From the IMG/VR virus record IMGVR_UViG_3300037400_002732, positions 64,001 through 128,000 of that record: DNA of 64,000 nucleotides. One strand, given 5' to 3'. The translations under genes and the position numbers were made by a program. Shown piece after piece: positions 19,684 through 57,730 of this stretch. This DNA comes from a virus (Duplodnaviria > Caudoviricetes). The notes under the pieces are model-generated. The model was not told where the DNA came from. It worked only from the letters and a program-made list of their open reading frames with translations, and made no database searches. Numbering within the stretch: position 1 is the first letter of the stretch; each line of letters opens with the position of its first letter.

Positions 19684-22600
19684 TTAGAATTCGATCTCGT
19701 CACTCGCTAGGATTTCATCCTTGTTGAGTTTAGGTTTCGGATTGGACTTTCGAGTAGCTTTCGGCTTCTTCGGACTAGTCATCTGAGTTTCGATAGTTTC
19801 ATCATCAAAATCATTGACATCGCCGAACAGTTCTTGATCGACATTCGGATCATTCGGTTCATCCTCATCATCGTCAGAACTGATAGACACGAACGAACTA
19901 GTTCCATCCCTACCAGAACGGTACTTATGGTCATCGGTAGAAAGAACAGCATTGTCACTTACATATTCCTTCGGAGCACCAGTGGTTTCGCGTTTCGAAG
20001 CCTTCTTTGTTGCACGGTGCTTCTTGACCTTCGGCGTTTTCTCTACCTTCGGCTTTTCCGCTACCTTTGGCTCCGCCTCTACCGTTGGATTATCGACTGG
20101 AATTTCTTCCTCGTCAATAAGGTCGCCAAATTCATCGCCAGTTTCGATCGTTTCCGGAGTTTCTTCCTCATCCTCAGCTGGGTTTCGGTTCACCTTTTCC
20201 AGAGAGAACGACCTACGAGCAGAGCTATTAGTAATGTCATTGAAGACATTCTTGAAGCCTTGCACAGCACCATCGTCAGACGCAGCAGCAACTACGCACA
20301 TGCTGTTGAAAGCAACCCTAGTCAGCCAGCCAAGGCTAGTCTTGACCATTTCACCGTAATCCTCGACAGCGAACGCTTGCGTAATAGCCTTGACAGCCTC
20401 AGCAACCTTTTGGCGCGTGTTGTCACCGGAATCCACAAGATCAGCGACACTAGCAAGCATCTGTATGTAGCGTTCAGCGCGAACGCCAGTCGCGACACAC
20501 ATCAATGCCATCAAGAACGCATCGACATAAGCATTGTCGGTATCATCGCCAAGCGAATACTTCTCTTGTAAAGTGAAGCCAAGCTTAGCAATGTAGTTGA
20601 ACGTTCCGTAGTCGAACACAAGGCCAGGGTACTTGAGCTTAAATATCGCATGTGAACCATCACTCAAGAGAATACCAGCTTCACGCAGCTTTGCCAACAG
20701 AGGGCCCATCTTTACAAGATAGTCATCCTTGGATGCGATAGAGTAGTACGGGTTATTGCGCATGTGAGCAATACGACGCTGGGCAGCCTTACTTGGGTAC
20801 ATCGAACCCATGCGGACTCGGTTGGAACCCTTCTCAATAGCCTCAAGTTCTCGGTCATACAGCATACTAGCACAATCAGACCAGCTGCGGTCATCCGTCT
20901 TGTACGCAATCAAGTTTTCAAAGATGTTTCGAATGCGCTGCTTTCTTATAGTACTTGTATCGCCAAAGAATCCAGTCGGAATACCAGTTGCCGTATCCAA
21001 GCGAAGCAAGCTGTTGATGATATTAATCACCTTGAGCTTGTCTGGATTCAGCGCAATACGCTGTTGAGCAACGTCGTTATGGCAGTATGCGTTGACCGTG
21101 TCCATCAATTCATCTTTATCAAGAGAATCCGGAACTGATCCGAGGAGCCTAGTAACACCAGAGATCCATTCGGAATCAATTTCACCAGCCTCATCTGACA
21201 TCATCTGAGGATATGCGTTAGGCTCACCAGATACCACGCCGATCTTATCCAAATCCGACATATCGCCAGATTCGTCCATCTGGTTCGTATCAGCGATTTC
21301 GTCCACGCAATCAGCCCATGACACGTCGTCGGTTTTCATCGAACCAAGCTTTTTGAACAACGCAATAAGCACGTCGTTAGAGTTTGCATCAGAACCCAAG
21401 TCAAGAACGCTACGCGGAATTTCTCCAGACTTCGCAATTCCATCGACATCCTTCAAGACATCGACGGCGGTAGCAACTCGTTCATTATCGATCTGCAATG
21501 GTTGATCAGCGCAGTATGCTTCGACAATCTGATTCATCTGGTCAGCAGTAATGTCATACGGCATAACATTCAAGGCATCCTTCAAATCGAATACCCATTC
21601 TGATTGGCCAAATGTACGACCAACATCCTTCATGACAGCTCGACGGCCAGCCTTCTGACCGAACGTAGTGGTCACCAAGATAATGTCGGCGATAGGCGTA
21701 TCGAAACCATAACACAGTTCATACAGCGAACGCATCGCTTCGTCCATGAGCTTGGTCGCACGTTCCTTATAATTTTTCGCGTAGTTCACGTCTCCGGTCA
21801 GTTCATCAATGGAGCCGTAATTGCCAGTCAGCTTCTTGAACAAATCCATACGGATCGCATGGGCAAAATCCTTGATAGACTCGACCTTCGGAACATCGGT
21901 AGATGAACCATCGCCAAGGGCAAGCGCAACGATTCGCGGAAGCGGAATCTTGTACGCCTTTTCCGGAGTAGTCCTATTACCGTTTTCGTCAAACGCGATA
22001 GCAGTTTCCTTCTTGTCGTCCAAGATATTCTCTTTGCTGCCAATTACTGCGCTATACATCTGGTTGTACGTTTTGAACGCATAGCCACCAATAGCCGCCT
22101 TTACCACTTCGGCGAGTGTAGGATAAGAGGTGTCCTTGTTACGTTCGTCATCAATCATCGCACTGACAAGTTCACGCTGCAAGTCATTAGCACCACGGCC
22201 CTTGTACAACTGCTTACCAGTCAACGACTGACGAACCGAGTTGAATGCACGTTCAGAAAGCCTATCAACACGTTCATCAGTAAGTACTCGTTCAAATGCG
22301 TTAAACGCCTTACCAAGAGTGTATGCATATTGGGCAAGTTGCGGATTCTGGTCAATTTCCTTCTGAATTAACGGTGTGTACGAAGTTCTTGCCGCAGCTT
22401 CTTCCGAGTCACTGAAACCAAGCATAGCAACGTCTTCGTCGGACGGAGCTTGACGCATCTGAGAACGAGCGAACGAGTCAATCGCCTTACCATACTTACT
22501 TGGTTGCACAGTGCCATCCTCATTCATCTGAGGCTCCTCATCCGGACGAGGTAATGCCCTAGTATTTGACAAGTACGGAACACCAACTTCTTCCTCGTTA

Positions 22601-25600
22601 CGGTTAATCACAGACTGATCGATACGATTGATAAGCTGGATCAATTTAGTGGCAAGATCTTCTTCGGATTCTGCACCCTTGACAACGTTCGTCGCAATCT
22701 GAGCAATCTTAATGGAAAGTGGGTTTCCACTATAACGACTCAAAATTCCGCGAACATTGTCTAGCGATTCAACCAAGTCTTCTTGGGTATCGGTATGCAA
22801 CGTAAGAACGTACTCACCAAGCATGAATACTACTTGGGCAATAGAACTAGCATCGGATTCCGTATAAGAGAACTCACGAAATTCAGGATCTTCATGATTG
22901 TCAATGTCGTCGTACGATTTATACTTCTTGAGATCCCTTAAAGTCTTAATCGCGGCATTCATTACGTTGCGAGCATGTTCAACTTCGTCAGAGCTTACCT
23001 TACCGTCAACGATAGAAGCTACCAACCCAGCATAGCACGGATAGTCCTTACCAATCTTCGCCAAGGCAGCCGCACCAGCTGCCTTCTTTTCCTTGGCAGC
23101 ATCATACGTTGCAATGTAACGTTGGAACAAGCGAAGCTGGCTCGGATCGCGTTTCGGATTTTCAGCAAATACCTTGTACCAGTGACGAATTTGTTCGTCA
23201 TCCGTCGCATTCTCGTTCTCAATCGGAGTAGCATTCGGCATTTCCTTAGCGAGTTCAATAGCACCTTCAAGAGACTCACCAGCATCTTGGTAAGCCTTGA
23301 CCGCGTTATTGTAATAAGCAGCTTGCTGGAGAATGTCGCCAAGCGCATGGTCACCAGCAGTTAAATCGCTAGTAGCAGATGCGTCATGAACCAATGCGTC
23401 TTGCTCACCATTGGCATAATGCAATGTCGTACGGCCCATGTTTTCATTGGAGAACATAGAGATTTCCGGCATCGGGTCGCCACCAGGTTTCAACGTAAAC
23501 GCTTGCTCAGTAGGTTCAGCAGTTTCGAGAGGATCCTTCTTGGAGTAGCCAGCTACATAGCGGAGCATACCAAACACCTTGACACGCTGAGCGTACTGGT
23601 TGATTCGCAACTCGCGCAAAGTCTTCTTATTCTGCTTGGGATCACCAGCCATCGTCTTTGAGATAGCTGCGGTCATAGTGTCCAGAAGGTCTTGGGTTAC
23701 GCCCTTCTCGTCAATGCACTTATCGACCACTGTGTACAAATTATTGCGTAGCTGTTCAACACGCTTGCCTCGCGGAGTTTTCATCAGAGCATCAACCAAG
23801 TTTTTCACTTGATCGTGCCACTGAGCAGAATTCTTCGAAACAATCGAAATCACACACACATACACCGACTTAATCTCAGCAGCCCTAGCCTTAGCCAACG
23901 CCTTCGCACCATTCTTGCCGATGATCGACGTTTGCAAGTCAACAACCTTGTCATGGAATTCATCAAAGCTGCTGAACCAATGCTTGTCGTTATTAACGTC
24001 GTTGAATGTTTGGATAGCCGACGCGATACTCTGCTTAGTTTGCGGATCGGATGCCTTGTTTTCGGCACTATAGAAATTTTCCATGAAGAATACCGATGAT
24101 CTAAGCAGATCTAGCAAGGTAGCTTGTTGCGCCTTGACCAATCCGTCGGTATATGCAACCACGTTACATGCCTTGCACAAATCCGACAACGCATTGGCCG
24201 ACAGAATAACCGAAGCCGAGTCAGAAGCACTGCCCTCGTCCGAGTTGAGTGTCGCCATATAAGATGCAATCATCTTATCGACCGCACTGTGCTTACCCAG
24301 CACAAAAGTATCGATCGACGGAGCAACCTTATATACGTTTTCCGCAATATCATCGGCAGTTCCATACCCAGCCGCCTCTGCCGATTTGGCATAATGCGAC
24401 ACGGCGTGAGTGAAGTTATCACAAATACTACCAATGTTAGATACAGCCTTGTTAAGCAATTCTGGATCGCTGGCATCATACAAATTCTTCACCTTGTCAA
24501 CCAAGGCCGTTCGGTAACCAAAATTGTCTGCCTCTTCGCTAGGCAAGAAACCATTGGTCGCAATCTTATGCACGTTGTCAGAACGGTTCAGTGTACGAAG
24601 ACGTTTTGCCTCTTCACTCATGCGAGTGTCTTGCATGATATTAGCATCATGAATATTTTCCATTTCACGAGTCATAGCGTCAGACTTCATCAAAGCATCG
24701 TCAGATGCGCCGCTACGAATATTGGAGAACGCCTTAAGACCGCACATGATGATCCATGCGGTTCCGCCGGATACGTAAGCCGGAATCAAAGACGAACTTA
24801 CATAGTTGGTGTAAATTTCCTTGATTCGAGGAAGATCTATACTGTCAACGTCAATATTGTAATCCTGTAGCGGGCCGTCACCATGATACGCAATCTTCAA
24901 TACGCCATCATGAAACTCGAAACATCTTTCGGTAATTTTTCCAGCAGTTACTTGATCAGACTTACTCCCATCACCCTTTAAACGGTCGTTAGGGCTTTCT
25001 TCACGGAACGTGTACACAGCATCAGCAAGACCGACGGCGTTAACAATTTCCTTTCCGTCGGCGGTTTCACCACCATGAATTTCATTGTCGCCGCTAAAGA
25101 CAATCTTCGTCTTGATATTTTTTACCGCGCTAACAAAGGTCGCATAGTCGAGCTCATTATCGGCCCTAGCAAGTCCTTTCTCAATAAACCACTTCGACAA
25201 TTCTTCCTTTCCGAGCTTAGCGGCTTTAGCCGCTTCATCAGACAAGTCAGCTAAATTGCTCAGCAAATCATAGTGGAGTGAAATAGCAGTTTGCGTATTG
25301 GCAGACACCTCTTGGAACCATGTAGCTACCGACTTAGCTAGATTAGCAGCACTCTGGTCATCAAAGACCGGTTCACACTTATATCCGCTATCAGTAAGGA
25401 TACGCTGCATAACCTTGTACACAGCGTGACCTACACGAGAATTTTTCATATTGTAGGAGAAACGACTCAACGCGTCAATCGCAAAGATCTTGTAATAGCG
25501 TTGGCAAGTAAACTTGGTTTTGTTGTTGACCAAGTTAAACTGAGTCGTGTTGTCCCCAAGCTCAGCCATGTTCTTGGTAACCACGTTTTCGGACTTCAAA

Positions 25601-26439
25601 ATATAGTCATCATCCGAACGTTCTTTATTCATGGCTTTCGTAGCAGTGTTACCAGACCAGCTTTTGGTCACAATATTGTATAGCTGCTGCGCCATAGCGG
25701 CAGTCCTATCGTTCCAAGCAGCGTCGCGAAATTCACTACCAACAATCTCATTACGCAGTACAGAACATGCAAGCGTCAAGTAAGCAGCATCAGTAACCAT
25801 CTGGTCAGATACATACGAACGAATGTTAGCTACATCGACCATGCTGTTAATAATCTCGATAACCTTGTTCAAACGAGCGGCGACAATTCCGTACAGCTCG
25901 TTCAAATCCGCGTTAGACACCGACTGTTCAGTCACCGGAGTTTGGTACAGCGAAGACGTGCACACTTCAAGCGAACTCATCAGCGCATAGTTGAACGCCT
26001 CGGCAGCTTGACTGCATGCGTTTTTGCGGCGTAATCCAGACTGCTTGCTAGGCTGGGATTCAAAGTTATAATCAACAACGGATTGGAAAGCCTTAATCGC
26101 TACCTTGTCATTGGTAGATTTAGCCATTTTCAACAAGAGCTTAGCCAGCGGAGGAATGACGGTAGCAGCCAAGTAGACATAGCGACGGCGAGCATTATCA
26201 CCCTTTTCATCATCACGATTCGAACCGCGCAAACTAGGATTCCAATTAGCGCGTAAGGCAACTTGATTCAATACAGCTTGGACAGCTGCATTCTTCGCCA
26301 CGTTGGTATATGAATTCTCATACGTCGTGCCGCTTGTTTCACCAAGCACCACATTCAGCACTTCATTCACATCTTGAACGATAAGTTTCTCAATTTCAGC
26401 TGGATTGGCCGCTTCAAGTAATATACGCTGACTGGTCAT
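19684..26439 (-). CDS. Giant 2251 aa Ala-rich helical protein, possible virion-internal/ejection protein
   Basis: Uninterrupted ORF; late motif at 26466; N-terminal MTSQRILLEAA; acidic/Lys-rich disordered tail; no catalytic motif recognised. Confidence 0.8.
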   Translation of the reverse strand: MTSQRILLEAANPAEIEKLIVQDVNEVLNVVLGETSGTTYENSYTNVAKNAAVQAVLNQVALRANWNPSLRGSNRDDEKGDNARRRYVYLAATVIPPLAKLLLKMAKSTNDKVAIKAFQSVVDYNFESQPSKQSGLRRKNACSQAAEAFNYALMSSLEVCTSSLYQTPVTEQSVSNADLNELYGIVAARLNKVIEIINSMVDVANIRSYVSDQMVTDAAYLTLACSVLRNEIVGSEFRDAAWNDRTAAMAQQLYNIVTKSWSGNTATKAMNKERSDDDYILKSENVVTKNMAELGDNTTQFNLVNNKTKFTCQRYYKIFAIDALSRFSYNMKNSRVGHAVYKVMQRILTDSGYKCEPVFDDQSAANLAKSVATWFQEVSANTQTAISLHYDLLSNLADLSDEAAKAAKLGKEELSKWFIEKGLARADNELDYATFVSAVKNIKTKIVFSGDNEIHGGETADGKEIVNAVGLADAVYTFREESPNDRLKGDGSKSDQVTAGKITERCFEFHDGVLKIAYHGDGPLQDYNIDVDSIDLPRIKEIYTNYVSSSLIPAYVSGGTAWIIMCGLKAFSNIRSGASDDALMKSDAMTREMENIHDANIMQDTRMSEEAKRLRTLNRSDNVHKIATNGFLPSEEADNFGYRTALVDKVKNLYDASDPELLNKAVSNIGSICDNFTHAVSHYAKSAEAAGYGTADDIAENVYKVAPSIDTFVLGKHSAVDKMIASYMATLNSDEGSASDSASVILSANALSDLCKACNVVAYTDGLVKAQQATLLDLLRSSVFFMENFYSAENKASDPQTKQSIASAIQTFNDVNNDKHWFSSFDEFHDKVVDLQTSIIGKNGAKALAKARAAEIKSVYVCVISIVSKNSAQWHDQVKNLVDALMKTPRGKRVEQLRNNLYTVVDKCIDEKGVTQDLLDTMTAAISKTMAGDPKQNKKTLRELRINQYAQRVKVFGMLRYVAGYSKKDPLETAEPTEQAFTLKPGGDPMPEISMFSNENMGRTTLHYANGEQDALVHDASATSDLTAGDHALGDILQQAAYYNNAVKAYQDAGESLEGAIELAKEMPNATPIENENATDDEQIRHWYKVFAENPKRDPSQLRLFQRYIATYDAAKEKKAAGAAALAKIGKDYPCYAGLVASIVDGKVSSDEVEHARNVMNAAIKTLRDLKKYKSYDDIDNHEDPEFREFSYTESDASSIAQVVFMLGEYVLTLHTDTQEDLVESLDNVRGILSRYSGNPLSIKIAQIATNVVKGAESEEDLATKLIQLINRIDQSVINRNEEEVGVPYLSNTRALPRPDEEPQMNEDGTVQPSKYGKAIDSFARSQMRQAPSDEDVAMLGFSDSEEAAARTSYTPLIQKEIDQNPQLAQYAYTLGKAFNAFERVLTDERVDRLSERAFNSVRQSLTGKQLYKGRGANDLQRELVSAMIDDERNKDTSYPTLAEVVKAAIGGYAFKTYNQMYSAVIGSKENILDDKKETAIAFDENGNRTTPEKAYKIPLPRIVALALGDGSSTDVPKVESIKDFAHAIRMDLFKKLTGNYGSIDELTGDVNYAKNYKERATKLMDEAMRSLYELCYGFDTPIADIILVTTTFGQKAGRRAVMKDVGRTFGQSEWVFDLKDALNVMPYDITADQMNQIVEAYCADQPLQIDNERVATAVDVLKDVDGIAKSGEIPRSVLDLGSDANSNDVLIALFKKLGSMKTDDVSWADCVDEIADTNQMDESGDMSDLDKIGVVSGEPNAYPQMMSDEAGEIDSEWISGVTRLLGSVPDSLDKDELMDTVNAYCHNDVAQQRIALNPDKLKVINIINSLLRLDTATGIPTGFFGDTSTIRKQRIRNIFENLIAYKTDDRSWSDCASMLYDRELEAIEKGSNRVRMGSMYPSKAAQRRIAHMRNNPYYSIASKDDYLVKMGPLLAKLREAGILLSDGSHAIFKLKYPGLVFDYGTFNYIAKLGFTLQEKYSLGDDTDNAYVDAFLMALMCVATGVRAERYIQMLASVADLVDSGDNTRQKVAEAVKAITQAFAVEDYGEMVKTSLGWLTRVAFNSMCVVAAASDDGAVQGFKNVFNDITNSSARRSFSLEKVNRNPAEDEEETPETIETGDEFGDLIDEEEIPVDNPTVEAEPKVAEKPKVEKTPKVKKHRATKKASKRETTGAPKEYVSDNAVLSTDDHKYRSGRDGTSSFVSISSDDDEDEPNDPNVDQELFGDVNDFDDETIETQMTSPKKPKATRKSNPKPKLNKDEILASDEIEF

Positions 26440-26502: not shown

Positions 26503-26527
26503 AGGCATAAACACTATTGGATTGATT

Positions 26528-28675
26528 ATGGCCCAGCACAATTTCAGTGAATTATTCGACGAATACCTTGATGACAAGGCATCCGATAAGCTAAGAAACC
26601 GATTGGCATCCGCCCAAGCCGATCTCGCTAAGTCACCAGTCGCCGACGAAATTCAAGCCAGTCTTGACGGCGGAGACATCGACCAAATTAAAGATTTGTT
26701 TACAATGCTAACACGAAGCAGTAAATCGACTGCTCCAGAAATTTGGAATGCACTGAAGCAAGACCGCAAGAACCTACTTGACGCAGCGGCCAACAAAAAA
26801 GTTAAGTCCAGTTCAATCGATTCGGCAATCAAGAAACTTAATCCCAAGCCGCAAAACGATACAGAAGCAAAGAAAGACAAACAGTTTGATGTAAATCTTC
26901 CCAATTTCTCACTAGAAAACGACAACATCTTTGGCGAGATGGGCGACGTATCGCTTGATGATCTGGCCAACGTCACCGACGACACTAAATCCGTTCCAGC
27001 TACAGCGTCAACGCAAGCTCAAGCTCAAGATCAAGCTCAAGCTCAAGCTCAAGATCAAGATCAAGCCCAAGCTCAAGATCAAGCTCAAGCTCAAGATCAA
27101 GATCAAGATCAAGATCAAGCAACAACCGAAGAAAACGACGCTGAAGCGGCGGCAACCGAGTTCGCAAACGAAGAAGAAATTCTGGACAATGATCCATTCC
27201 ATATCACTACAATAGACGATGAGGAAAAATCAGAAGAGGAAGAAAAAACAGTCGATCAAGCGCAAAGTGAGCAAGCACAAAGTGAACAAGCACAAAGTGA
27301 ACAAGCGCAAGGTGATAACAGCACAGCAGCAACAAACTCAGTCGATATTAATCCGGAAGAAGTAGAAGCAGAAGAAGCACGACGTCTGCGTGAAGCAGCA
27401 GAAGCCGCAAGACAGCAACGCGATGCAGAAGCCGCCGCTGCGGCACAACGCCAGCGCGATGCAGAAGCCGCCGCTGCGGCACAACGCCAGCGCGATGCAG
27501 AAGCCGCCGCTGCAGCACAACGCCAGCGCGATGCAGAAGCCGCCGCTGCAGCACAACACCAGCGCGATGCAGAAGCCGCGTCAGCTAGCCAAGAAGGCAA
27601 TGCAGATACTATCGATCTTCCCAATGACAGTGCGGATAATGTAAACTTCCGTGAACAATATTCAGATGTGTATGCCGAAATCGACGAAAAGGCCATTACA
27701 TCAGAACAAGCGGAGGAAGCCAAACGATATGCTGACCAAGTATTCGCTACTCCGGATGTTGAGCCGAGAGCGTATCATGCATTGACTGGAGGCCCCAGTG
27801 CGATTCGCACCAGGTGCATCGCTGGATTGCTGTCTACGGCAAATTCCAGACTAGGTTACAGATCTGACGGCGACCCAAGCACATCAAACCGCATCAACTT
27901 CAATGGCGGTGTCTCGTCCCAGGGTCACGTCGCTCCACACGTTCGCAGATCGTTTGTTATTCCCAATGGATTCGGCATGAAGCGCAATGCGTCCATCTGG
28001 AATACACCGATAATTACAGACTTCGGATTCCCATTCCTCAACTTCAGCTCTGAAGCCTTTCTCAACGTAATCAAGTCGGACGAAGATGATAAGGTTAAAA
28101 ACAGTAATCTGAAAGAAATGTTTAAGAATGCCAGCAAAACCCTCGGTGGTGTATGGAAGGCTATTCACGCAGCACCGCTTGAGTTGATTCGCCAAATCGC
28201 TCATGAGATTGGAACCAAATGTACGCCCAACTATCTCAGAGTTGATGGTAACGACTTGCTGACTGCAGAACCGGGTGAACGAGTAAGCGTCACGCCAATC
28301 AACTACTACAGCGTCAATCCGTCTTACTTGGGTGTCACGATGGTTCCATACGAATTCTTGACTAACTTCTACGATGTAATCGACTACAGCAGCACATCCC
28401 AGAACGTCTATTTGAAGTACTCTGATGGGTTGACTGCAGATGAATTCGCCGAAGAAATCAACGAGAACGATGGCATTCCTCCATTCTACATCCTCGTACC
28501 GAAGAACGCAAAATTTAGCAAGTGCCCCATCAAGTCCGGTAGCTTATTCGGTTCACTCATGAACGTCATCCTCGGTCGTCAGAAGTACATGATGGTCAAG
28601 ACAGTCTTCCAAGGCAAGCGTGGATGTATCGCAATGGACGAGCAAACCGCAGACAAGCTGTATTCCAACCTATAG
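26528..28675 (+). CDS. Late protein with low-complexity repeats; C-terminal domain paralogous to 30105..31631
   Basis: ATG 26528; QAQAQD, QAQSE and QRDAEAAAAAQR repeats; GIPPFYILVPK motif shared with the next late gene. Confidence 0.8.
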   Translation: MAQHNFSELFDEYLDDKASDKLRNRLASAQADLAKSPVADEIQASLDGGDIDQIKDLFTMLTRSSKSTAPEIWNALKQDRKNLLDAAANKKVKSSSIDSAIKKLNPKPQNDTEAKKDKQFDVNLPNFSLENDNIFGEMGDVSLDDLANVTDDTKSVPATASTQAQAQDQAQAQAQDQDQAQAQDQAQAQDQDQDQDQATTEENDAEAAATEFANEEEILDNDPFHITTIDDEEKSEEEEKTVDQAQSEQAQSEQAQSEQAQGDNSTAATNSVDINPEEVEAEEARRLREAAEAARQQRDAEAAAAAQRQRDAEAAAAAQRQRDAEAAAAAQRQRDAEAAAAAQHQRDAEAASASQEGNADTIDLPNDSADNVNFREQYSDVYAEIDEKAITSEQAEEAKRYADQVFATPDVEPRAYHALTGGPSAIRTRCIAGLLSTANSRLGYRSDGDPSTSNRINFNGGVSSQGHVAPHVRRSFVIPNGFGMKRNASIWNTPIITDFGFPFLNFSSEAFLNVIKSDEDDKVKNSNLKEMFKNASKTLGGVWKAIHAAPLELIRQIAHEIGTKCTPNYLRVDGNDLLTAEPGERVSVTPINYYSVNPSYLGVTMVPYEFLTNFYDVIDYSSTSQNVYLKYSDGLTADEFAEEINENDGIPPFYILVPKNAKFSKCPIKSGSLFGSLMNVILGRQKYMMVKTVFQGKRGCIAMDEQTADKLYSNL
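27014..27120 (+). repeat. Hexamer tandem repeat CAAGCT/CAAGAT (QA/QD)
   Basis: About 18 consecutive in-frame hexamers. Confidence 0.9.
27416..27579 (+). repeat. 36 bp tandem repeat x about 4.5 (QRDAEAAAAAQR)
   Basis: Units start at 27416, 27452, 27488, 27524, 27560. Confidence 0.9.
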
Positions 28676-28678
28676 CAT

Positions 28679-28733
28679 TGTTTCATGTGAAACATTTTAT
28701 TGTTTCACGTGAAACATTGTTTCACATGAAACA
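28679..28733. promoter_or_regulatory. parS: Cluster of three parS (ParB/Spo0J-binding) palindromes
   Basis: TGTTTCATGTGAAACA 28679-28694; perfect TGTTTCACGTGAAACA 28701-28716; TGTTTCACATGAAACA 28718-28733; matches the chromosomal parS consensus TGTTNCACGTGAAACA. Confidence 0.85.
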
Positions 28734-28736
28734 TTG

Positions 28737-28764
28737 AAAATCCGTCAAACCATGGCGGATTTTT
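28737..28764. terminator. Bidirectional terminator between the 717 aa gene and tnpB/omegaRNA
   Basis: AAAATCCGTCA-AACCA-TGGCGGATTTTT. Confidence 0.75.
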
Positions 28765-29953
28765 CTTGTATAATTGGTGAACTACTCACAGCGTAAAGGC
28801 TGTGAGCTTCGCGTTTCGTATCGATGTTTCCCGCGCCTTTAACCGCAGTCCCTGCGGCGATTAATCTTTTACCTTCGGTAAGGATGTTGATGGCGGCATT
28901 GACGTCACGGTCATGAGATGTTCCGCACTGCGGACACGTCCACGACCTTACGTTCAAGTCCTTGGCCAACATATTTCTATAACCACATCGATGACAGAGC
29001 TGAGTTGATGGAAACCATCGTCCGACACGGACGATGGTTCGTCCGTACCATTCAGCCTTATACTGTAGTTTGTTCAGAAACATCCTCCAAGCGGCGTCAT
29101 GTTCAGACTTCGCGTGGACACCCTCGGAGACCTCGCGCACGTCGAGATCTTCGACCACCACCGTTTGGTTCTCGCGGAGTAGTCGAGTGGACAGCTTGCC
29201 AAGAAAATCCTTCCTTCGGTTAGCAACTTTTTCATGTTCGCGAGCAATGCGTACGCGCAACTGCTCGCGTCTATTTGAACCTTTCTGCTTTTTGGATAAA
29301 GCTCGCTGAAGGTCAGCGATACGATTTTCCGATTCTTTTTGGAACCGAGGATTCGAGACAGCTTCGCCGTCGCTGGTAACGCAGAATTCTTTAAGCCCTA
29401 AGTCGATTCCTATTTCGAATTCGGATGTCGGCAGTGCCTTCGGCACAGCCTCCTCGACCAAGATCGACGCATAGTAATTTCCAGCACGTGACCGTGACAC
29501 GGTCACGTGCTTGATGTCCCTTACAGACCAGTCGATATCTTCGTAGTTGCGGAAGGAAACTAAGCCTACCTTCGGCAGACGGAGCCTCCGCCCTTCTACA
29601 CGAATGTTGTTTTTCGTACGGTAAGTTGTATATGAATCCTTGTCGTTGTGCTTTGTCTTGAACTGCGGAAATCCGACTCCGTCGGCTTTCCGATCGAAGA
29701 AGTTCTTGAATGCCGTATTCAACGTAAGCACTTCGGCTGTCAAGGCGTTCGAATCGACTTCTTTCAAGAAAGGAAACTCTGTGTAGAAATCCGTCGGCTT
29801 AGACCGGCACTGCATGCCGGTCGCCTCGTATGATTTCTTACGTGCTTCTAACATGCAGTTGTAGACCTTACGGCAGCAGCCGAAAGTCTTGCAGAGCAAG
29901 ACTTCCTGATGCTTGTTAGGATACAGTCTGACGTTGTAGGCACGTTGAAACAT
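28745..29953 (-). CDS. tnpB: RNA-guided endonuclease TnpB
   Basis: N-terminal RAYNVRLYP...FGCCRKVYN; RuvC-I GIDLG, RuvC-II VVEDL, Zn finger CHRC/CPQC, RuvC-III DRDVNAAINI; all three catalytic acidic residues present. Confidence 0.96.
   Translation of the reverse strand: MFQRAYNVRLYPNKHQEVLLCKTFGCCRKVYNCMLEARKKSYEATGMQCRSKPTDFYTEFPFLKEVDSNALTAEVLTLNTAFKNFFDRKADGVGFPQFKTKHNDKDSYTTYRTKNNIRVEGRRLRLPKVGLVSFRNYEDIDWSVRDIKHVTVSRSRAGNYYASILVEEAVPKALPTSEFEIGIDLGLKEFCVTSDGEAVSNPRFQKESENRIADLQRALSKKQKGSNRREQLRVRIAREHEKVANRRKDFLGKLSTRLLRENQTVVVEDLDVREVSEGVHAKSEHDAAWRMFLNKLQYKAEWYGRTIVRVGRWFPSTQLCHRCGYRNMLAKDLNVRSWTCPQCGTSHDRDVNAAINILTEGKRLIAAGTAVKGAGNIDTKREAHSLYAVSSSPIIQEKSAMV
28757..28900 (-). ncRNA. 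Predicted TnpB omegaRNA (right-end scaffold plus guide CAATTATACAAGAAAAATCC at 28776-28757); 5' limit approximate
   Basis: Established architecture: the scaffold overlaps the tnpB 3' end/right end and the guide is the flank after the TCAC cleavage site. Confidence 0.6.
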
Positions 29954-30072
29954 GGTTCAATAGTTCTAATCTTTATTTTTTATATAGTTTATAACTAGTT
30001 AAATTATTTTTGTCACGTTCCGTGCCTATTATCTGCCACCCTTTATGGTGGCAGTTTTCTCAGTGCGTTCTT
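28777..30072 (-). mobile_element. tnpB-only (IS1341-type) IS200/IS605 element, 1296 bp
   Basis: Right end GAAG-CTCACAGC-CTTTAC-GCTGTGAG-TAGT-TCAC ending at 28777; left-end hairpin CTGCCACC-ATAAAG-GGTGGCAG (30033-30054) with AAAA at its foot and TTAT just outside; joining the flanks restores a consensus TGATAAACT promoter; no tnpA present. Confidence 0.85.
29986..30015 (-). promoter_or_regulatory. tnpB promoter: GTGACA-N17-TATAAA overlapping a TTATAAACT late-type motif
   Basis: Minus strand GTGACAaaaataatttaactagtTATAAACT, about 33 nt upstream of the tnpB ATG. Confidence 0.5.
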
Positions 30073-30079
30073 ATAAACT
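30071..30079 (+). promoter_or_regulatory. Late promoter TTATAAACT formed at the IS left junction
   Basis: ATAAACT from phage DNA plus TT from the IS end; 25 bp upstream of ATG 30105. Confidence 0.7.
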
Positions 30080-30104: not shown

Positions 30105-31631
30105 ATGAAGACTAAGGCTATTTTAGAAAGCAACGCTATGCAAGATAACGAGCTTGCCGCGAATGGTGGTGATATTGACAACACTGGTATCCCAAGTGGT
30201 CTTCCTTTGGCTAAAGGCCAGCAAGGTAATGTCAAGTCCGAGCAAAAACTGCTGAATGACGCCTTTGACGAAGGCTACGATGAAGCTATGCTCGACGCTG
30301 ACCTGGCTGCCGAACAGAAAGCAAGCGAAGATCCGTTTGGCCCAGAGACAAAGCATACTATTAAATTCGATGAAGAAGCTGAACGAGACAATGTCGATCT
30401 TCCAGAACAACAAGAAAGCTATATCGACCAACTGGCCAAGTACTACCGAGTAATGGCTCAAGAATTCAAGCTACGTTTTCACGACAAGCCAGAAGACGGC
30501 GAAAAGCTGGCACAGTTCTTAGTCACTAAGATTCTCAGCAAGCCGAACAGCACCAATGCGCAAAAATGGATCGATTACATCAACAACAGGGCGCAGAAAG
30601 GCAAGAGTAAGTCAATAATCCAGATGAAGATTATTCCTACGTTAGCTAAAGCGGCCAACATCGAAGTACCTCGTCAAGTCAACAACGAACAAACTGAATA
30701 TATCGCAAACCGAAATGGAAATTTCGTAGGGTCTATAGTCGTTCCGGAAGGCTTCAACCAGCCGCCAATCGACTTAGGCAATACAGCGATCTCATTCGAA
30801 TTTGGATACCCGGCAATCAACTACAAGAGTAAACTGATCACCGAAATTACTGGGGAAACCGAACAGAATCGTCTCAAGAAGTTGCTAATCGCATTGATCG
30901 AGCAAATCAACGGAACTCCAGCAGCGAAGACATTTTTGACTCGCGGCGTATTTCAATCATGGACTGGAAAGAAAGCTCGTTCAACATTGAATCGAGTGAT
31001 TAAAGAAGCGGCCCATGCAATGGGTGTTCCAATGATTCGTCGTCCATTAAAAGTTACCGCGCAAGCATTAGTCGGCGACTCAGAGGCTGAAGACATTTCA
31101 TGCATCCCTATCAATCAGACTGCCAACAAGAAGGCGATCGTACGCGAGTCAATAGACGCAAACGATACGAACGCATTATATGAGGGCCCTATCAACTTTA
31201 TCAAGAATCGCTTTAAAGCTGACTCGACTTCCGCACAGATGTTCGGTCAACCAGTAACATTGAACCGCAATTACTTGTGCCAATTCTATACCGTCTTGGC
31301 ACCAAGTGGTACAGCCGGTCTGACTAAGTACGCAAGGTTCATGGATCAAGACGATTACGACAATATAGTCAGTAAGCTTGGCGAGAAAACAATGCAAGAA
31401 ATCAAGGACGCCAACAGCAATGTGAACGACCGTTTGTTCATTGATTATCTCAACAAGACTAGCGGGGTTCCGCCATTCTATATCCTTATTCCTCGTAAGA
31501 ACGAACGCATCCGCGTATGCGACGAGAATATGGTAAACGGCAATGTCTGCGTCAAGTCAATCGACAGCAAAAACAAGGAAGCATACTTCTTCCCTCAAGA
31601 AAATGTTAAATCCGTATTCGAAGCTGGGTAA
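30105..31631 (+). CDS. Late protein (508 aa), paralog of the 26528..28675 C-terminal domain
   Basis: N-terminal MKTKAILES; IVVPEGF, FEFGYPAINY and GVPPFYILIPR match segments in the upstream gene. Confidence 0.8.
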   Translation: MKTKAILESNAMQDNELAANGGDIDNTGIPSGLPLAKGQQGNVKSEQKLLNDAFDEGYDEAMLDADLAAEQKASEDPFGPETKHTIKFDEEAERDNVDLPEQQESYIDQLAKYYRVMAQEFKLRFHDKPEDGEKLAQFLVTKILSKPNSTNAQKWIDYINNRAQKGKSKSIIQMKIIPTLAKAANIEVPRQVNNEQTEYIANRNGNFVGSIVVPEGFNQPPIDLGNTAISFEFGYPAINYKSKLITEITGETEQNRLKKLLIALIEQINGTPAAKTFLTRGVFQSWTGKKARSTLNRVIKEAAHAMGVPMIRRPLKVTAQALVGDSEAEDISCIPINQTANKKAIVRESIDANDTNALYEGPINFIKNRFKADSTSAQMFGQPVTLNRNYLCQFYTVLAPSGTAGLTKYARFMDQDDYDNIVSKLGEKTMQEIKDANSNVNDRLFIDYLNKTSGVPPFYILIPRKNERIRVCDENMVNGNVCVKSIDSKNKEAYFFPQENVKSVFEAG

Positions 31632-42808: not shown

Positions 42809-45800
42809 ATGGCTGGATTATTTGACTTCGAACATTACTACAAGGAAATGAATATCAAAACTGACATCAAGCTCGATGTCAGTGATATTCCTATGAAGAG
42901 TTCCGCCACTTCGTCCGTTATGAACGAGGATGGTACGATCGATGAAGTCAACATGAATGAACTCGTCACGAATAACGTGATGTATAAGATTGCCGTTATT
43001 TATGTCAACGGCGCCAAAATTCCTACTGGCTCTCGTATCGTATTGACGACCAATTCTATTGAAGACGATTCAGCGGTCACTACGGTTAATACCTATTATC
43101 TGGCTGTTGGATATCCGTTGGATGACCTTGTGTCGTCCGGTCTGTATGATATACCGGAAACTCGTTCCGTACTTCCGAATATTACCTTGAATGTCGGCGA
43201 AACTCAACTTGACAATGGCGTAACTTTGGCTGGCATGAAGCTGTGCTCGAATAATGAAAGCGATACTCACGGAACCGACATCGCGTCGGTGACATTGCAA
43301 GTCATTCCTCGCGTTCGTCTGGAAAATCCAGACGCCAAGCTGGACATGACACCGTATGATCCGTCATATCCGAACACTGACCAAAATTTCTGGCATGAAG
43401 CCAATTACTTGAATACTGTTCGCGCTCTTGCTGGAGTTGGCTTGATGGGCAGTATGTACAAGGGTATGAAGTGGTATGATTCCAAGGCATACAAGGCCGC
43501 TGGCGTTTACGGTTATGATTCGTTTGTCAAAATGGTCAATAACTTGTCTAAGGTGGCAAAGGAAAATAACCTCGGTATCAAGACATGCTTCTATGACCGT
43601 TCATACATGGACAAGGTGACATACACTAACACGATGTCGAAGTGGGCTTACTTGAGGGCCACGATACGCGCTGACTGGACTAGGACGGATATTAAGAAGA
43701 ACGCCAAGGCGAATGCCGTGTACGGAAGCCCGGTTGCTGCGTTCGAGTCCAAATGTCGCTCACGTTCGGACGATCCTCTGCCGAACATTATCAAGGACGG
43801 TTCTACTGCTCTGATTCCGACCGTGTCGGACGTGTTCAAGAAATTGTATGAAAGCAAGGAAGACCTTGCGCAAGAATTTACTGACCAGTTTTTCGAGACT
43901 TACAAAAGCATCACCAGCATCAAGGGCGTAAGAAGGTTCATGTCGAGTTCGCTCAAGAGAAAGCTGGATTCGGCTAAGTGGGCCTTGAAGAAGGCCGGTA
44001 AAGGCGAACCCCAGTACATGTTGGATCTGGCGTCATGCCGAAATTATCTTGAGTATCTGGACGATCAGCCAGCGTTTACTCATCCAGTCGATGCGGTTGT
44101 CTCACATCCGTCCAATCCTACGTTATATCGTAACTTTACGAATTGCGTACGAATGATTAGCGAATGGGGTTTTAACGTCAAGGTAAATACTGGTGCCACC
44201 GCTGATTTGACGAAGTACTTTGTCGGTACTTATCATGGGCCGGACTACAACAAGGATCTGTATGCCTTGCATTATGACACTATGGGTGAAGATGGTTATG
44301 CCGATTGGCAAATTTCTTCGTCCAAGGTGAAACTGTCCGAAGTCAAACAGATGCTTTGCGATTACTATACCGGGTTTTACAACGCTAAGTTTAACCACGA
44401 GGAAGGTTCTGATCTTTACGTCAAGTGGTTCTACAACCCAGCTGGCAATTCTTCTGAAGAAAAGTATCGAGGCACCATCACGTACGATGACGGAACTGGT
44501 ACGATGGTTACCAAGGAATTTGGTATTGCCGATTACCAAGAAGGTAAAGACGGTTCGTTTGTTCAAGATCCAACCAATATTCGTGATGCAGTCATCAAGG
44601 GCAATACGGTTATACTTTATACTGGTACGTCTCGCGCATACATTGACATCATGCTTCGAATAATCAGTGCTCTGTACCAGTCCGTTGAATCTGATCGTGG
44701 TCTTGATTATTACGAATGGGTGAATTTCTATACCGCGTACTTCTCGAATGATGACTATGAAATCAGTATTGTCGATTGGGACAGTGCATCGACGGCAAGC
44801 GACCTCATTAACTTGAGCGAATTTTATCCGTCATACATGACACTTGATGACATGGGTCAGGCGGAGGATTATACGATTAACGACAGTGTCTACTTTGCCG
44901 AAAACGTGATGGAAGAAGCACTTGATGAAATCGATACCATATTGAGCGTACAAGGTTTATTGCTTGGGCCGACATTCTTGCTAATCCAGAAGTTGAGGCT
45001 GCGCGGAGCTAATAGCGAATACGCCGAGCTTCAGAATGTCATCAATAGGATAAAGTGGTATCAGATATACACGAATGAATCTGTGTTTGACAACAAGACC
45101 TTTATAGGCACTCGACTGGATTATTCATACGAAACGTGTCCGTACTTCTATATGCCAGCGCGTTTCCTTATTCCGGTAGAAATGTACCGAAGGGTTCGCA
45201 TAAAGTATAGACGCCTATTCCGTACTCGACATAAGACGGTGAAGCGTTCGATTGGCGTTCGTTGGTGTGAAGTTACTTTTGTAGACAACGATGTCTACGA
45301 AGCGTATCCGCAGAATTCGGATGTACCTCAGCAGTTCTACCCGATTGGCCGCAACGCAGCGGTTTCTACGGTTGGCGATACGACTACGTTCACGTTTGAT
45401 ACTCCGATTGAGGGCGATGCCGCCGATCAGATTGACGTAGGCGATGTTACTAAGTTTAATGAAGGCTCGCTATTGTTGGTGAGCATGGACGGCGTAGAAG
45501 TTCCAGTCAAGTTCAATAATGCGTACAAGTTTACCTCGGACGCAGTTGAAGGAATTGGTGCCTCCGTCTATGTTGTCGGAATTTATGTTCCGCTTGAAAA
45601 TACGGCTAAATCCGATGAACGAACCAAGGTTCGTGTCGAGTACAAGATGCCGTATATACCGTATGATTCCGAATTGCGCCGCTGGGCGTTCATGAACTAC
45701 GGTGCATTCGACCAAGACAAGTATGCCTCAGATACTCGTGAAGTTCCAGCAGACCCAGACAGCAAAACGCCGGGCTGGGTGATCTTCAAGAACAGTTCGA

Positions 45801-47485: not shown

Positions 47486-47491
47486 AGGAAT

Positions 47492-57721: not shown

Positions 57722-57730
57722 TTATAAACT
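57722..57730 (+). promoter_or_regulatory. Putative late promoter TTATAAACT
   Basis: 27 bp upstream of ATG 57758. Confidence 0.72.

What the first reader, a model, noticed from the sequence alone, without database searches (positions are those of the whole stretch)
28757..30079. TnpB element inserted into the phage late promoter: the TAM is the promoter core and the left end rebuilds the promoter
Seen: the right end has GAAG at the hairpin foot and ends TCAC (28777); the left end has AAAA at the hairpin foot with TTAT 14 nt upstream (junction 30072/30073). Both fit the IS608-type guide/cleavage-site pairing rule. Removing 28777-30072 gives CTTGTATAATTG|ATAAACTGCAC, a perfect TGATAAACT late promoter (compare GAATTGATAAACTGCG at 47488). 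After insertion the junction reads TTATAAACT, the same variant found natively at 57722. Inference: the TAM (TTTAT) is the reverse complement of the late-promoter core, so late promoters are near-neutral landing sites. The intact TnpB with guide CAATTATACAAGAAAAATCC would cut the IS-free allele in co-infecting relatives, acting as an RNA-guided homing endonuclease at a site that cannot easily mutate its TAM.
Basis: partly seen in the sequence, partly recalled or inferred. Interest (0 to 1): 0.78.

Follow-up and report, generated by a model that had tools for sequence, protein, structure and literature searches.

The report
TnpB insertion element in phage promoter
A 1.3 kb TnpB-only mobile element sits exactly at the upstream edge of a phage promoter core, and ten non-homologous sister copies in related rumen huge phages sit at the same motif, so this element family lands in phage promoters.

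Summary
Window 28777-30072 (minus strand) is a 1296-bp TnpB-only IS200/IS605-type element. It has an intact ISDra2-like TnpB, IS608-style end hairpins and a conserved omegaRNA-like 3' structure.

A related phage (G002) has the two flanking genes adjacent. Its intergenic DNA aligns without a gap across the predicted empty junction (…AATTG|ATAAACT…).

[G/T]ATAAACT is a real, enriched promoter-like motif. It lies about 23-29 nt before start codons, including T4-type terminase and gp15 genes.

All 11 non-homologous insertions with left guide AAAA lie 3' of (A/C)GTTTAT, the reverse complement of that core. Most have a start codon 17-40 nt beyond. Copies with guide AAAC lie after TTTAG or TTGAG instead, a covariation that fits the IS608 pairing rule.

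- the element carries its own TATAAACT promoter for tnpB;
- no phage genome searched encodes TnpA;
- the native motif extends 5 nt upstream (AACTG), so the left end rebuilds it only in part.

Promoter neutrality, the measured TAM and RNA-guided homing remain inferences. No IS-free allele of the same phage was found.

Verdict: real, a new variant of a known kind, moderately high interest.

The parts
28777..30072 (-). Whole TnpB-only IS200/IS605-type element, 1296 bp
   Evidence: Homology among 15 copies begins and ends at these bases. Sister elements are 1265-1318 bp.
30073..30079 (+). ATAAACT promoter core of gene 30105. On the minus strand it reads AGTTTAT, the insertion target and putative TAM (TTTAT = 30073-30077).
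   Evidence: Orthologous empty sites in G002, G001 and G003 keep ATAAACT at the same distance from the ATG.
30033..30072 (-). Left end. Contains a 14-nt linker (30072-30059), guide GL AAAA (30058-30055) and hairpin CTGCCACC/GGTGGCAG (30054-30033).
   Evidence: GL covaries with the flanking target across copies.
29986..29994 (-). The element's own phage-type promoter TTATAAACT, 32 nt upstream of the tnpB ATG
   Evidence: An ATAAACT (usually TATAAACT) is kept at this position in 12 of the 14 sister copies aligned; L012 reads TATAAAT and L018 TACACGT. Spacing.
28745..29953 (-). tnpB ORF, 402 aa. The last 32 nt (28745-28776: 10 codons plus the stop) lie outside the element because the family's usual stop is lost.
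   Evidence: Pfam HTH_OrfB_IS605 + OrfB_IS605 + Cas12f1-like_TNB. ISDra2 TnpB E 5e-81. D184/E268/D350 and 4 Cys kept; dN/dS 0.09-0.21; sister ORFs are 386 or 390 aa.
28777..28956 (-). Putative omegaRNA scaffold, overlapping the 3' end of tnpB and the right end (extent inferred)
   Evidence: RNAalifold on 13 copies gave 44 pairs, 10 with compensatory changes.
28777..28810 (-). Right end. Contains guide GR GAAG (28810-28807), hairpin CTCACAGC/GCTGTGAG (28806-28785) and TAGT + cleavage site TCAC (28784-28777).
   Evidence: The hairpin arms show compensatory changes among copies.
28757..28776 (-). Flank that would be transcribed as the omegaRNA guide (CAATTATACAAGAAAAATCC)
   Evidence: Sequence. 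The role is inferred from the known TnpB mechanism (PMC8612924, PMC10055086).
28736..28765 (+). Terminator-like hairpin of the upstream gene (GAAAATCCG…CGGATTTTTC). It overlaps the guide-matched flank.
   Evidence: A homologous hairpin lies at the same place in G002.
30105..31631 (+). Gene served by the split promoter (508 aa, no family found)
   Evidence: Homologs in G002 (49% id) and G001 (29% id) lie next to the upstream-gene homolog.

Best explanation
Window 28777-30072 is a non-autonomous (TnpB-only, IS1341-like) IS200/IS605 element. It belongs to a lineage found in rumen T4-like huge phages.

Shown:
- It inserted by the IS608-type single-strand route, 3' of TTTAT on the minus strand.
- That TTTAT is the reverse complement of the ATAAA in the phage promoter core [G/T]ATAAACT. 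The element therefore sits between position -1 and the core of the promoter of gene 30105, antisense to that gene.
- The core, the spacing to the ATG and a T at -1 remain intact.
- The element brings its own TATAAACT promoter for tnpB.
- Because the target motif coincides with the promoter core, every surviving insertion of the AAAA-guide form is at a promoter.

Inferred from the family's known mechanism:
- tnpB is transcribed together with phage genes that use the ATAAACT promoter (late timing is itself inferred).
- TnpB processes the 3' end of its transcript into an omegaRNA with guide CAATTATACAAGAAAAATCC.
- It cuts IS-free copies of this site (TTTAT + guide match) in co-infecting genomes of the same phage. 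Recombinational repair then copies the element in.
- New sites require a Y1 TnpA supplied in trans, from a source not identified.
For: Identity of TnpB:
- Pfam domains.
- E 5e-81 to ISDra2 TnpB structures 8exa/8h1j.
- RuvC D-E-D and the zinc-finger Cys are intact in 12 of 13 copies; dN/dS is 0.09-0.21.

Ends:
- Both boundaries are fixed by 15 copies.
- Hairpins fold and covary.
- CL/GL = TTAT/AAAA and CR/GR = TCAC/GAAG parallel IS608's TTAC/AAAG and TCAA/GAAT (PMC5934647, PMC3201880).
- Sister copies with GL AAAC are flanked by TTAG.

Empty site:
- G002 has the two flanking genes adjacent, at 56% and 49% aa identity.
- Its intergenic DNA runs stop, palindrome, terminator, AATTGATAAACT, about 26 nt, ATG. 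It aligns ungapped across the predicted junction.
- G001 and G003 are also empty at this place.

Promoter motif:
- 38 ATAAACT sites lie 14-44 nt before an ORF of 50 aa or more (mostly 23-29 nt). Consensus AACTGATAAACT.
- Enriched against shuffles and in five related genomes.
- It precedes the T4-type large terminase and gp15 genes.

Target choice:
- 11 insertions with non-homologous flanks lie at AGTTTAT (10) or CGTTTAT (1).
- For the ten sites with an automated or by-eye ATG call, an ATG follows 17-40 nt on. The ATG of L010 is ambiguous (about 20 or 37 nt by eye).

Own promoter: an ATAAACT is conserved about 30 nt upstream of the tnpB ATG in most copies.

Homing mechanism: PMC8612924 and PMC10055086 (abstracts).
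Against: - No IS-free allele of the same or a near-identical phage could be found. Close relatives seem to be withheld from the searches, so presence/absence polymorphism is not shown.
- No Y1 TnpA in the window's record or in four related phage records, three of them over 90% complete. The one TnpA in a Fibrobacter MAG that carries contigs with this element has unrelated ends.
- The promoter association is partly explained by survival alone. In this genome 39 of 81 intergenic TTTAT, and 39 of 47 intergenic GTTTAT, are promoter cores.
- The native motif has conserved positions upstream of the junction (A at -5 in 32 of 38) that the LE does not restore here, so the promoter may be weakened.
- Late timing, the omegaRNA, the TAM and cleavage are all untested.
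- DNA modification, common in T4-like phages, could block TnpB.
Confidence: 0.72

Rival explanations
1. The promoter association is a passive by-product. The element simply targets (G)TTTAT. Insertions inside genes kill the phage, and most intergenic (G)TTTAT in these gene-dense genomes happen to be promoter cores. There is no adaptation of the target to the promoter and no promoter 'rebuilding'.
For: - 95% of the record is coding by a crude gene call. 39 of 81 intergenic TTTAT and 39 of 47 intergenic GTTTAT are AGTTTAT.
- Sister copies with guide AAAC insert at TTTAG sites that are not promoters, so promoter residence is not obligatory for the lineage.
- The LE does not restore the conserved A at -5.
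Against: - With a 5-nt target the null gives 0.48^11, about 3e-4, for 11 of 11 at promoters.
- The first LE base gives T or G at -1 in all copies, which are the two bases natives use in 36 of 38 sites.
- The element also carries the same promoter motif for its own gene, which shows adaptation to phage transcription.
Confidence: 0.2
2. The TnpB is a domesticated phage gene (an RNA-guided weapon or regulator fixed at this locus) and no longer part of a mobile element.
For: - No TnpA in the phages.
- tnpB is driven by a phage promoter.
- Strong purifying selection.
- Phage-encoded TnpB derivatives that act as RNA-guided regulators (TldR) are known (10.1101/2023.11.30.569447).
Against: - The catalytic triad is intact, unlike TldR.
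- Both transposon ends, with their TnpA-type hairpins and guide tetranucleotides, are conserved.
- GL covaries with the flanking target.
- 11 or more different insertion sites, and up to three copies in one genome.
Confidence: 0.06

Closest known systems
ISDra2 (IS200/IS605, Deinococcus radiodurans) TnpB and omegaRNA
   Same: - Closest solved relative (E 5e-81 over residues 4-369).
- Same domain order, RuvC D-E-D and zinc finger.
- The omegaRNA is encoded over the 3' end of tnpB and the RE.
- The target/TAM lies 5' of the LE.
   Different: - ISDra2 carries tnpA and targets TTGAT (my own knowledge of Karvelis 2021, PMC8612924).
- This element has no tnpA and lies after (AG)TTTAT.
- It lives in phage genomes and has a phage-type promoter.
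IS608 (Helicobacter pylori) end architecture
   Same: Subterminal hairpins with a 4-nt guide 5' of each foot that reads the cleavage site. IS608 has CL/GL TTAC/AAAG and CR/GR TCAA/GAAT (PMC5934647, PMC3201880). Here they are TTAT/AAAA and TCAC/GAAG, changed at the same paired position.
   Different: The distances differ: 14 nt instead of 19 at the LE, 4 nt instead of 10 at the RE. There is no tnpA. The pairing itself was not tested biochemically.
ISCaje1-3, TnpB-only IS200/IS605 elements in T4-like Campylobacter phages CP220 and CPt10 (PMC2853527)
   Same: TnpB-only elements inside virulent T4-like phage genomes, at different places in related phages.
   Different: The passages read from that paper report no link to promoters. 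I did not compare the sequences.
TnpB-driven transposon homing (Meers et al. 2023, PMC10055086) and protein homing endonucleases of T4-like phages
   Same: The proposed function is the same. The nuclease cuts the element-free allele, and repair from an element-bearing genome copies the element. The target sits in sequence the genome needs.
   Different: Homing was shown in bacteria for elements that have TnpA, not in co-infecting phages. Here the needed sequence is a promoter core used as the TAM. Nothing was tested here.

Membership tests
TnpB (RNA-guided nuclease of IS200/IS605 and IS607 elements) | HTH/REC, OrfB_IS605 (RuvC) and zinc-finger TNB domains | tested here: met
   Pfam PF12323 (3.9e-17), PF01385 (1.2e-26) and PF07282 (1.1e-25), all over their cut-offs.
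TnpB (RNA-guided nuclease of IS200/IS605 and IS607 elements) | Intact RuvC catalytic D-E-D | tested here: met
   D184, E268 and D350 sit in the GIDLG, VVEDL and HDRDVN motifs. They are conserved in 12 of 13 copies; L018 is truncated.
TnpB (RNA-guided nuclease of IS200/IS605 and IS607 elements) | omegaRNA from the 3' end of the gene and the RE, with the guide read from the flank | tested here: inconclusive
   There is a conserved structure with 10 covarying pairs.
TnpB (RNA-guided nuclease of IS200/IS605 and IS607 elements) | TAM-dependent, guide-dependent DNA cleavage | not testable with these tools
   Needs a biochemical or in vivo assay.
IS200/IS605 insertion sequence (IS1341-like, TnpB-only subgroup) | Subterminal imperfect palindromes at both ends, and no terminal inverted repeats | tested here: met
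   LE and RE hairpins. They are conserved with compensatory changes.
IS200/IS605 insertion sequence (IS1341-like, TnpB-only subgroup) | Insertion 3' of a short specific target, with no target duplication | tested here: met
   Copies lie after TTTAT or TTTAG. The deduced empty site aligns ungapped with the G002 ortholog, with no duplicated bases.
IS200/IS605 insertion sequence (IS1341-like, TnpB-only subgroup) | Guide tetranucleotide 5' of the hairpin foot matches the cleavage site | tested here: met
   AAAA goes with TTAT in 11 sites. AAAC goes with TTAG at three distinct sites (L012, L014, L018) plus the L056/L057 contig, which was binned twice; L007 has TGAG. GAAG goes with TCAC in all copies. 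The rule is from PMC5934647.
IS200/IS605 insertion sequence (IS1341-like, TnpB-only subgroup) | Mobilisation by a Y1 (HUH) TnpA | tested here: not met
   No PF01797 in G000-G004. No bacterial relative closer than 46% apart from rumen MAG contigs that look like phage fragments. TnpB-only members are expected to use TnpA in trans, so this does not exclude membership.
T4-type late promoter | Single -10-like element resembling TATAAATA, upstream of virion and packaging genes, with no -35 | tested here: inconclusive
   [G/T]ATAAACT has no conserved positions beyond -5. It precedes the T4-type TerL and gp15 genes. The other 18 motif-preceded ORFs scanned matched no family (the 10 window ORFs in PHROGs and Pfam; 8 outside the window in Pfam only). 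A gp55 homolog was not sought, and timing is unknown.

The most novel reading that the evidence does not exclude
This is a phage-specialised lineage of RNA-guided selfish elements. Its transposition target and nuclease TAM have converged on the core of the phage's own promoter. That gives it dozens of landing sites per genome that tolerate insertion, fixes its orientation, and puts a TAM in the empty allele that the phage cannot lose. The element carries the same promoter for tnpB, so it is expressed with the ATAAACT-promoter genes and drives itself through co-infecting huge-phage populations. Switching one guide base (AAAA to AAAC) retargets it, and this has happened in both subclades.
Probability: 0.35. 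Interest if true: 0.78.

Novelty: new variant of a known kind. Interest (0 to 1): 0.64.

Why it matters
Three points make this worth following up.

1. It would be a natural case in which a TnpB/IS605 element's target and TAM coincide with a regulatory motif that the carrier genome needs. That is the logic protein homing endonucleases use when they target conserved sites in essential genes. It would explain how an insertion sequence persists in gene-dense virulent phages.

2. The family gives a natural covariation series, with guide base and target base changing together, for IS608-type target reading.

3. It provides a set of compact ISDra2-like TnpBs with a T-rich TAM. It also marks a testable promoter motif for an uncultured group of rumen huge phages.

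Tried and rejected
- Phage GenBank collection: megablast, blastn and tblastn with the locus and both neighbours gave no match.
- The search for related loci with the downstream protein in IMG/VR found no relative.
- Exact empty-site 19-mer in IMG/VR: one hit (L003) that lies inside unrelated DNA, so a chance match.
- Degenerate empty-site pattern in metagenome and viral contigs found only G002 and an identical contig, L054.
- Rfam: only a sub-threshold RNAI hit (31 bits against 47) over the palindromes and terminator. Taken as chance.
- PHROGs on the 10 window ORFs and Pfam on 20 motif-preceded ORFs: only the terminase and gp15 genes were recognised.
- A TnpA in a Fibrobacter MAG that carries contigs with this element has unrelated ends, so it is not a demonstrable helper.
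- More distant viral TnpB loci (L019-L030, 34-44% id) belong to other IS types, some with tnpA or a serine recombinase upstream. They were uninformative for this target.
- A scan with a conserved omegaRNA pattern added only one new, truncated copy.
- Rejected idea, that ATAAACT is carried by the element as an outward promoter: the empty orthologous sites already hold it at the same distance from the ATG.
- Literature searches found TnpB in phages and TnpB homing, but nothing on insertion at phage promoters.
Full report
**What is at the site.**
- The minus strand of window 28745-29953 encodes a 402-aa protein.
- It has the three TnpB domains: HTH_OrfB_IS605, OrfB_IS605 and the Cas12f1-like TNB zinc finger. 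All score over Pfam's cut-offs.
- Its closest solved relative is ISDra2 TnpB (8bf8/8exa/8h1j), at E 5e-81 over residues 4-369.
- The window is bases 64001-128000 of a 174.8 kb IMG/VR virus record, estimated 46% complete. The record holds a second, 32%-identical TnpB.
- The phage is T4-like: it has a T4-type large terminase and a gp15 tail-sheath stabiliser.

**Ends of the element.**
- Read on the minus strand, the left end is TTTAT|AAGAACGCACTGAG-AAAA-CTGCCACC(ATAAAG)GGTGGCAG.
- The right end is GAAG-CTCACAGC(CTTTAC)GCTGTGAG-TAGTTCAC|CAATTATACAAG….
- Both hairpins fold as single-stranded DNA.
- A scan of IMG/VR with the protein returned 27 loci. Fifteen are 67-90% identical copies in other large phage contigs, up to 355 kb, with up to three copies in one contig.
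- Aligning their upstream and downstream DNA fixes both boundaries to the base. Similarity begins right after TTTAT (or TTTAG) and ends right after GTAGTTCAC.
Sister elements are 1265-1318 bp.

**The IS608 rule.**
- In IS608 the cleavage sites are read by 4-nt guides just 5' of each hairpin foot: CL TTAC by GL AAAG, and CR TCAA by GR GAAT (PMC3201880, PMC5934647).
- Here the pairs are TTAT/AAAA and TCAC/GAAG, which differ from IS608 at the same paired fourth position.
- The family itself gives the stronger evidence. Eleven copies with GL AAAA are flanked by TTAT. Copies with GL AAAC (L012, L014, L018 and the L056/L057 contig) are flanked by TTAG, and L007 by TGAG.
- Both guide/target forms occur in both sequence subclades of the family.

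**The empty site.**
- No near-identical phage could be reached.
- A related 348 kb phage, G002, has homologs of the two flanking genes (56% and 49% aa identity) directly adjacent.
- Its intergenic DNA runs: stop, one TGTTTCACGTGAAACA palindrome, terminator hairpin, GGCGGATTTTTCGTATTTAATTGATAAACT, about 26 nt, ATG.
- It aligns without a gap across the junction deduced for the window, GGCGGATTTTTCTTGTATAATTG|ATAAACT.
- The same intergenic place in G001 and G003 is also empty and reads atATAAACT and aaATAAACT.
- So ATAAACT belongs to the resident promoter and was not brought by the element. Insertion made no duplication.

**The promoter motif.**
- TGATAAACT occurs 21 times in the record.
- KATAAACT occurs 17 times in the window against 3.7 +/- 1.8 in shuffles.
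- Excluding the two copies tied to the element, 38 ATAAACT sites lie 14-44 nt upstream of an ATG that opens an ORF of 50 aa or more. Most lie at 23-29 nt.
- The information profile gives AACTG-ATAAACT: A at -5 in 32 of 38 sites, G or T at -1 in 36 of 38, and nothing conserved further upstream.
- KATAAACT is two to five times over its control in five related genomes. TATAAACT prevails in G003 and G004.
- The motif resembles the T4 late promoter TATAAATA (my own knowledge) and precedes the terminase and gp15 genes.
- The other 18 motif-preceded ORFs scanned matched no family; the window ORFs were scanned in both PHROGs and Pfam, the rest in Pfam only. 'Late' is therefore likely but not shown.

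**Do the sister copies sit at promoters?**
- Ten AAAA-guide copies with mutually non-homologous flanks (tblastx) are flanked by AGTTTAT. An eleventh, in a rumen MAG contig, is flanked by CGTTTAT.
- In ten of the eleven sites an ATG follows the motif at 17-40 nt, most opening long ORFs. The ATG of L010 is ambiguous.
- All are antisense to the gene served, as the strand of the target requires.
- Null model: this genome has 342 TTTAT, 81 of them intergenic by a crude gene call, and 39 of those 81 are AGTTTAT. Of 47 intergenic GTTTAT, 39 are AGTTTAT.
- With a 5-nt target and survival only between genes, 11 of 11 at promoters has p of about 3e-4. With a 6-nt target it would be unremarkable.
- The safe statement is that the target motif coincides with the promoter core, so surviving insertions are at promoters. 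That this match is adaptive is an inference.
- The AAAC-guide copies lie at TTTAG sites that are not promoters, so promoter residence is a property of the guide form, not of the whole lineage.

- Most copies carry an ATAAACT motif, usually TATAAACT, about 30 nt upstream of the tnpB ATG. In the window it is TTATAAACT at 29986-29994 on the minus strand. The element is thus wired to phage transcription. Together with the split promoter it forms a divergent promoter pair like the native pairs in this genome.
- No Y1 transposase is found in the window's record or in four related phage records. Among species-representative bacterial genomes, only small rumen MAG contigs carry close copies; the next bacterial relatives are 46% identical or less. 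The conserved ends and the guide-target covariation argue that TnpA-type transposition has acted recently, but the helper is unknown.
- The LE rebuilds the promoter only in part. The junction reads GTTCTT|ATAAACT. That matches the consensus at -3 and -2 and gives the second most common base at -1, but it lacks the A at -5.
- In this copy the family's usual stop (TAG in the RE hairpin loop) is TAC, so the ORF runs 16 codons further, 10 of them in flank DNA.

**Is it active?**
- TnpB is under purifying selection (dN/dS 0.09-0.21). The RuvC triad and the four zinc-finger cysteines are kept in 12 of 13 copies; L018 is truncated.
- The last 180 nt or so of the element have a conserved fold, with 10 of 44 pairs showing compensatory changes. 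This fits an omegaRNA, though part of it is also coding.
- By the known mechanism (PMC8612924; PMC10055086), the RNA's guide would be the 16-20 nt of flank after TCAC. The nuclease would cut TTTAT followed by that sequence, which is exactly the empty site.
- G002's site differs from the guide at positions 7, 9 and 11, so it would probably escape. Resistance can arise in the guide-matched part even if the TAM is locked in the promoter.
- Homing between co-infecting phages is thus plausible but untested. Read-level data could not be obtained.

**Comparison and verdict.**
- TnpB-only IS200/IS605 elements in T4-like phages were reported for Campylobacter phages CP220 and CPt10 (PMC2853527). TnpB homing is established in bacteria.
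- I found no report of a TnpB element whose target is a phage promoter core.
- The finding is real. The functional reading is reasonable but only partly supported.
- I class it as a new variant of a known kind.

Noticed in passing
window 28679-28733; L035 (G002) around 83747-83765: Three parS-like palindromes (TGTTTCACGTGAAACA type) lie between the stop of gene 26522-28675 and its terminator. One perfect copy sits at the same place in the orthologous region of G002, so the feature is conserved across diverged phages.
   Followed up: partly
G000:C1 29220/29244, 52588/52624, 90472/90496 (window 26472/26496), 131131/131155, 138306/138332: Back-to-back divergent ATAAACT motifs 24-36 bp apart, each followed by a gene start, are a recurring layout in this genome. 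The insertion creates a similar pair, 80 bp apart.
   Followed up: partly
window 28745-28793, minus strand: The family's usual tnpB stop (TAG in the loop of the RE hairpin) reads TAC here. The ORF is therefore 402 aa rather than 386 or 390, and its last 10 codons are flank DNA, including part of the guide region.
   Followed up: yes
G000:C1:18659-20150 (L002): The second TnpB of the same phage (32% id, same strand as its neighbours) is also preceded by ATAAACT, about 110 nt upstream, with long hairpins in between. Its ends and target were not determined.
   Followed up: partly
L005 and L017: This is the same insertion site in two diverged phages. The element's 3' part is 91% identical, while the flank is 78% and falls further. 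The two guide regions differ, so this looks like an old inherited insertion under selection rather than recent homing.
   Followed up: partly
L056/L057, L058, L093 (rumen MAGs labelled Prevotella and Fibrobacter): Copies 85% identical (plus one short 34-residue fragment, L093) lie on short contigs binned into bacterial MAGs, and one identical contig sits in two different MAGs. These are probably phage fragments. At best they are a weak hint about the host.
   Followed up: partly
G007 (IMGVR_UViG_3300031993_004551) and G003 (IMGVR_UViG_3300031993_000006): Single huge-phage contigs carry three TnpB genes. In G003 all three belong to this lineage; in G007 they belong to three different lineages (72%, 41% and 34% id).
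   Followed up: no
window 19687-26439 (-), 42809-47482 (+) and eight other motif-preceded window ORFs: Very long ORFs (up to 2251 aa) behind the promoter motif match no Pfam or PHROGs family.
   Followed up: partly
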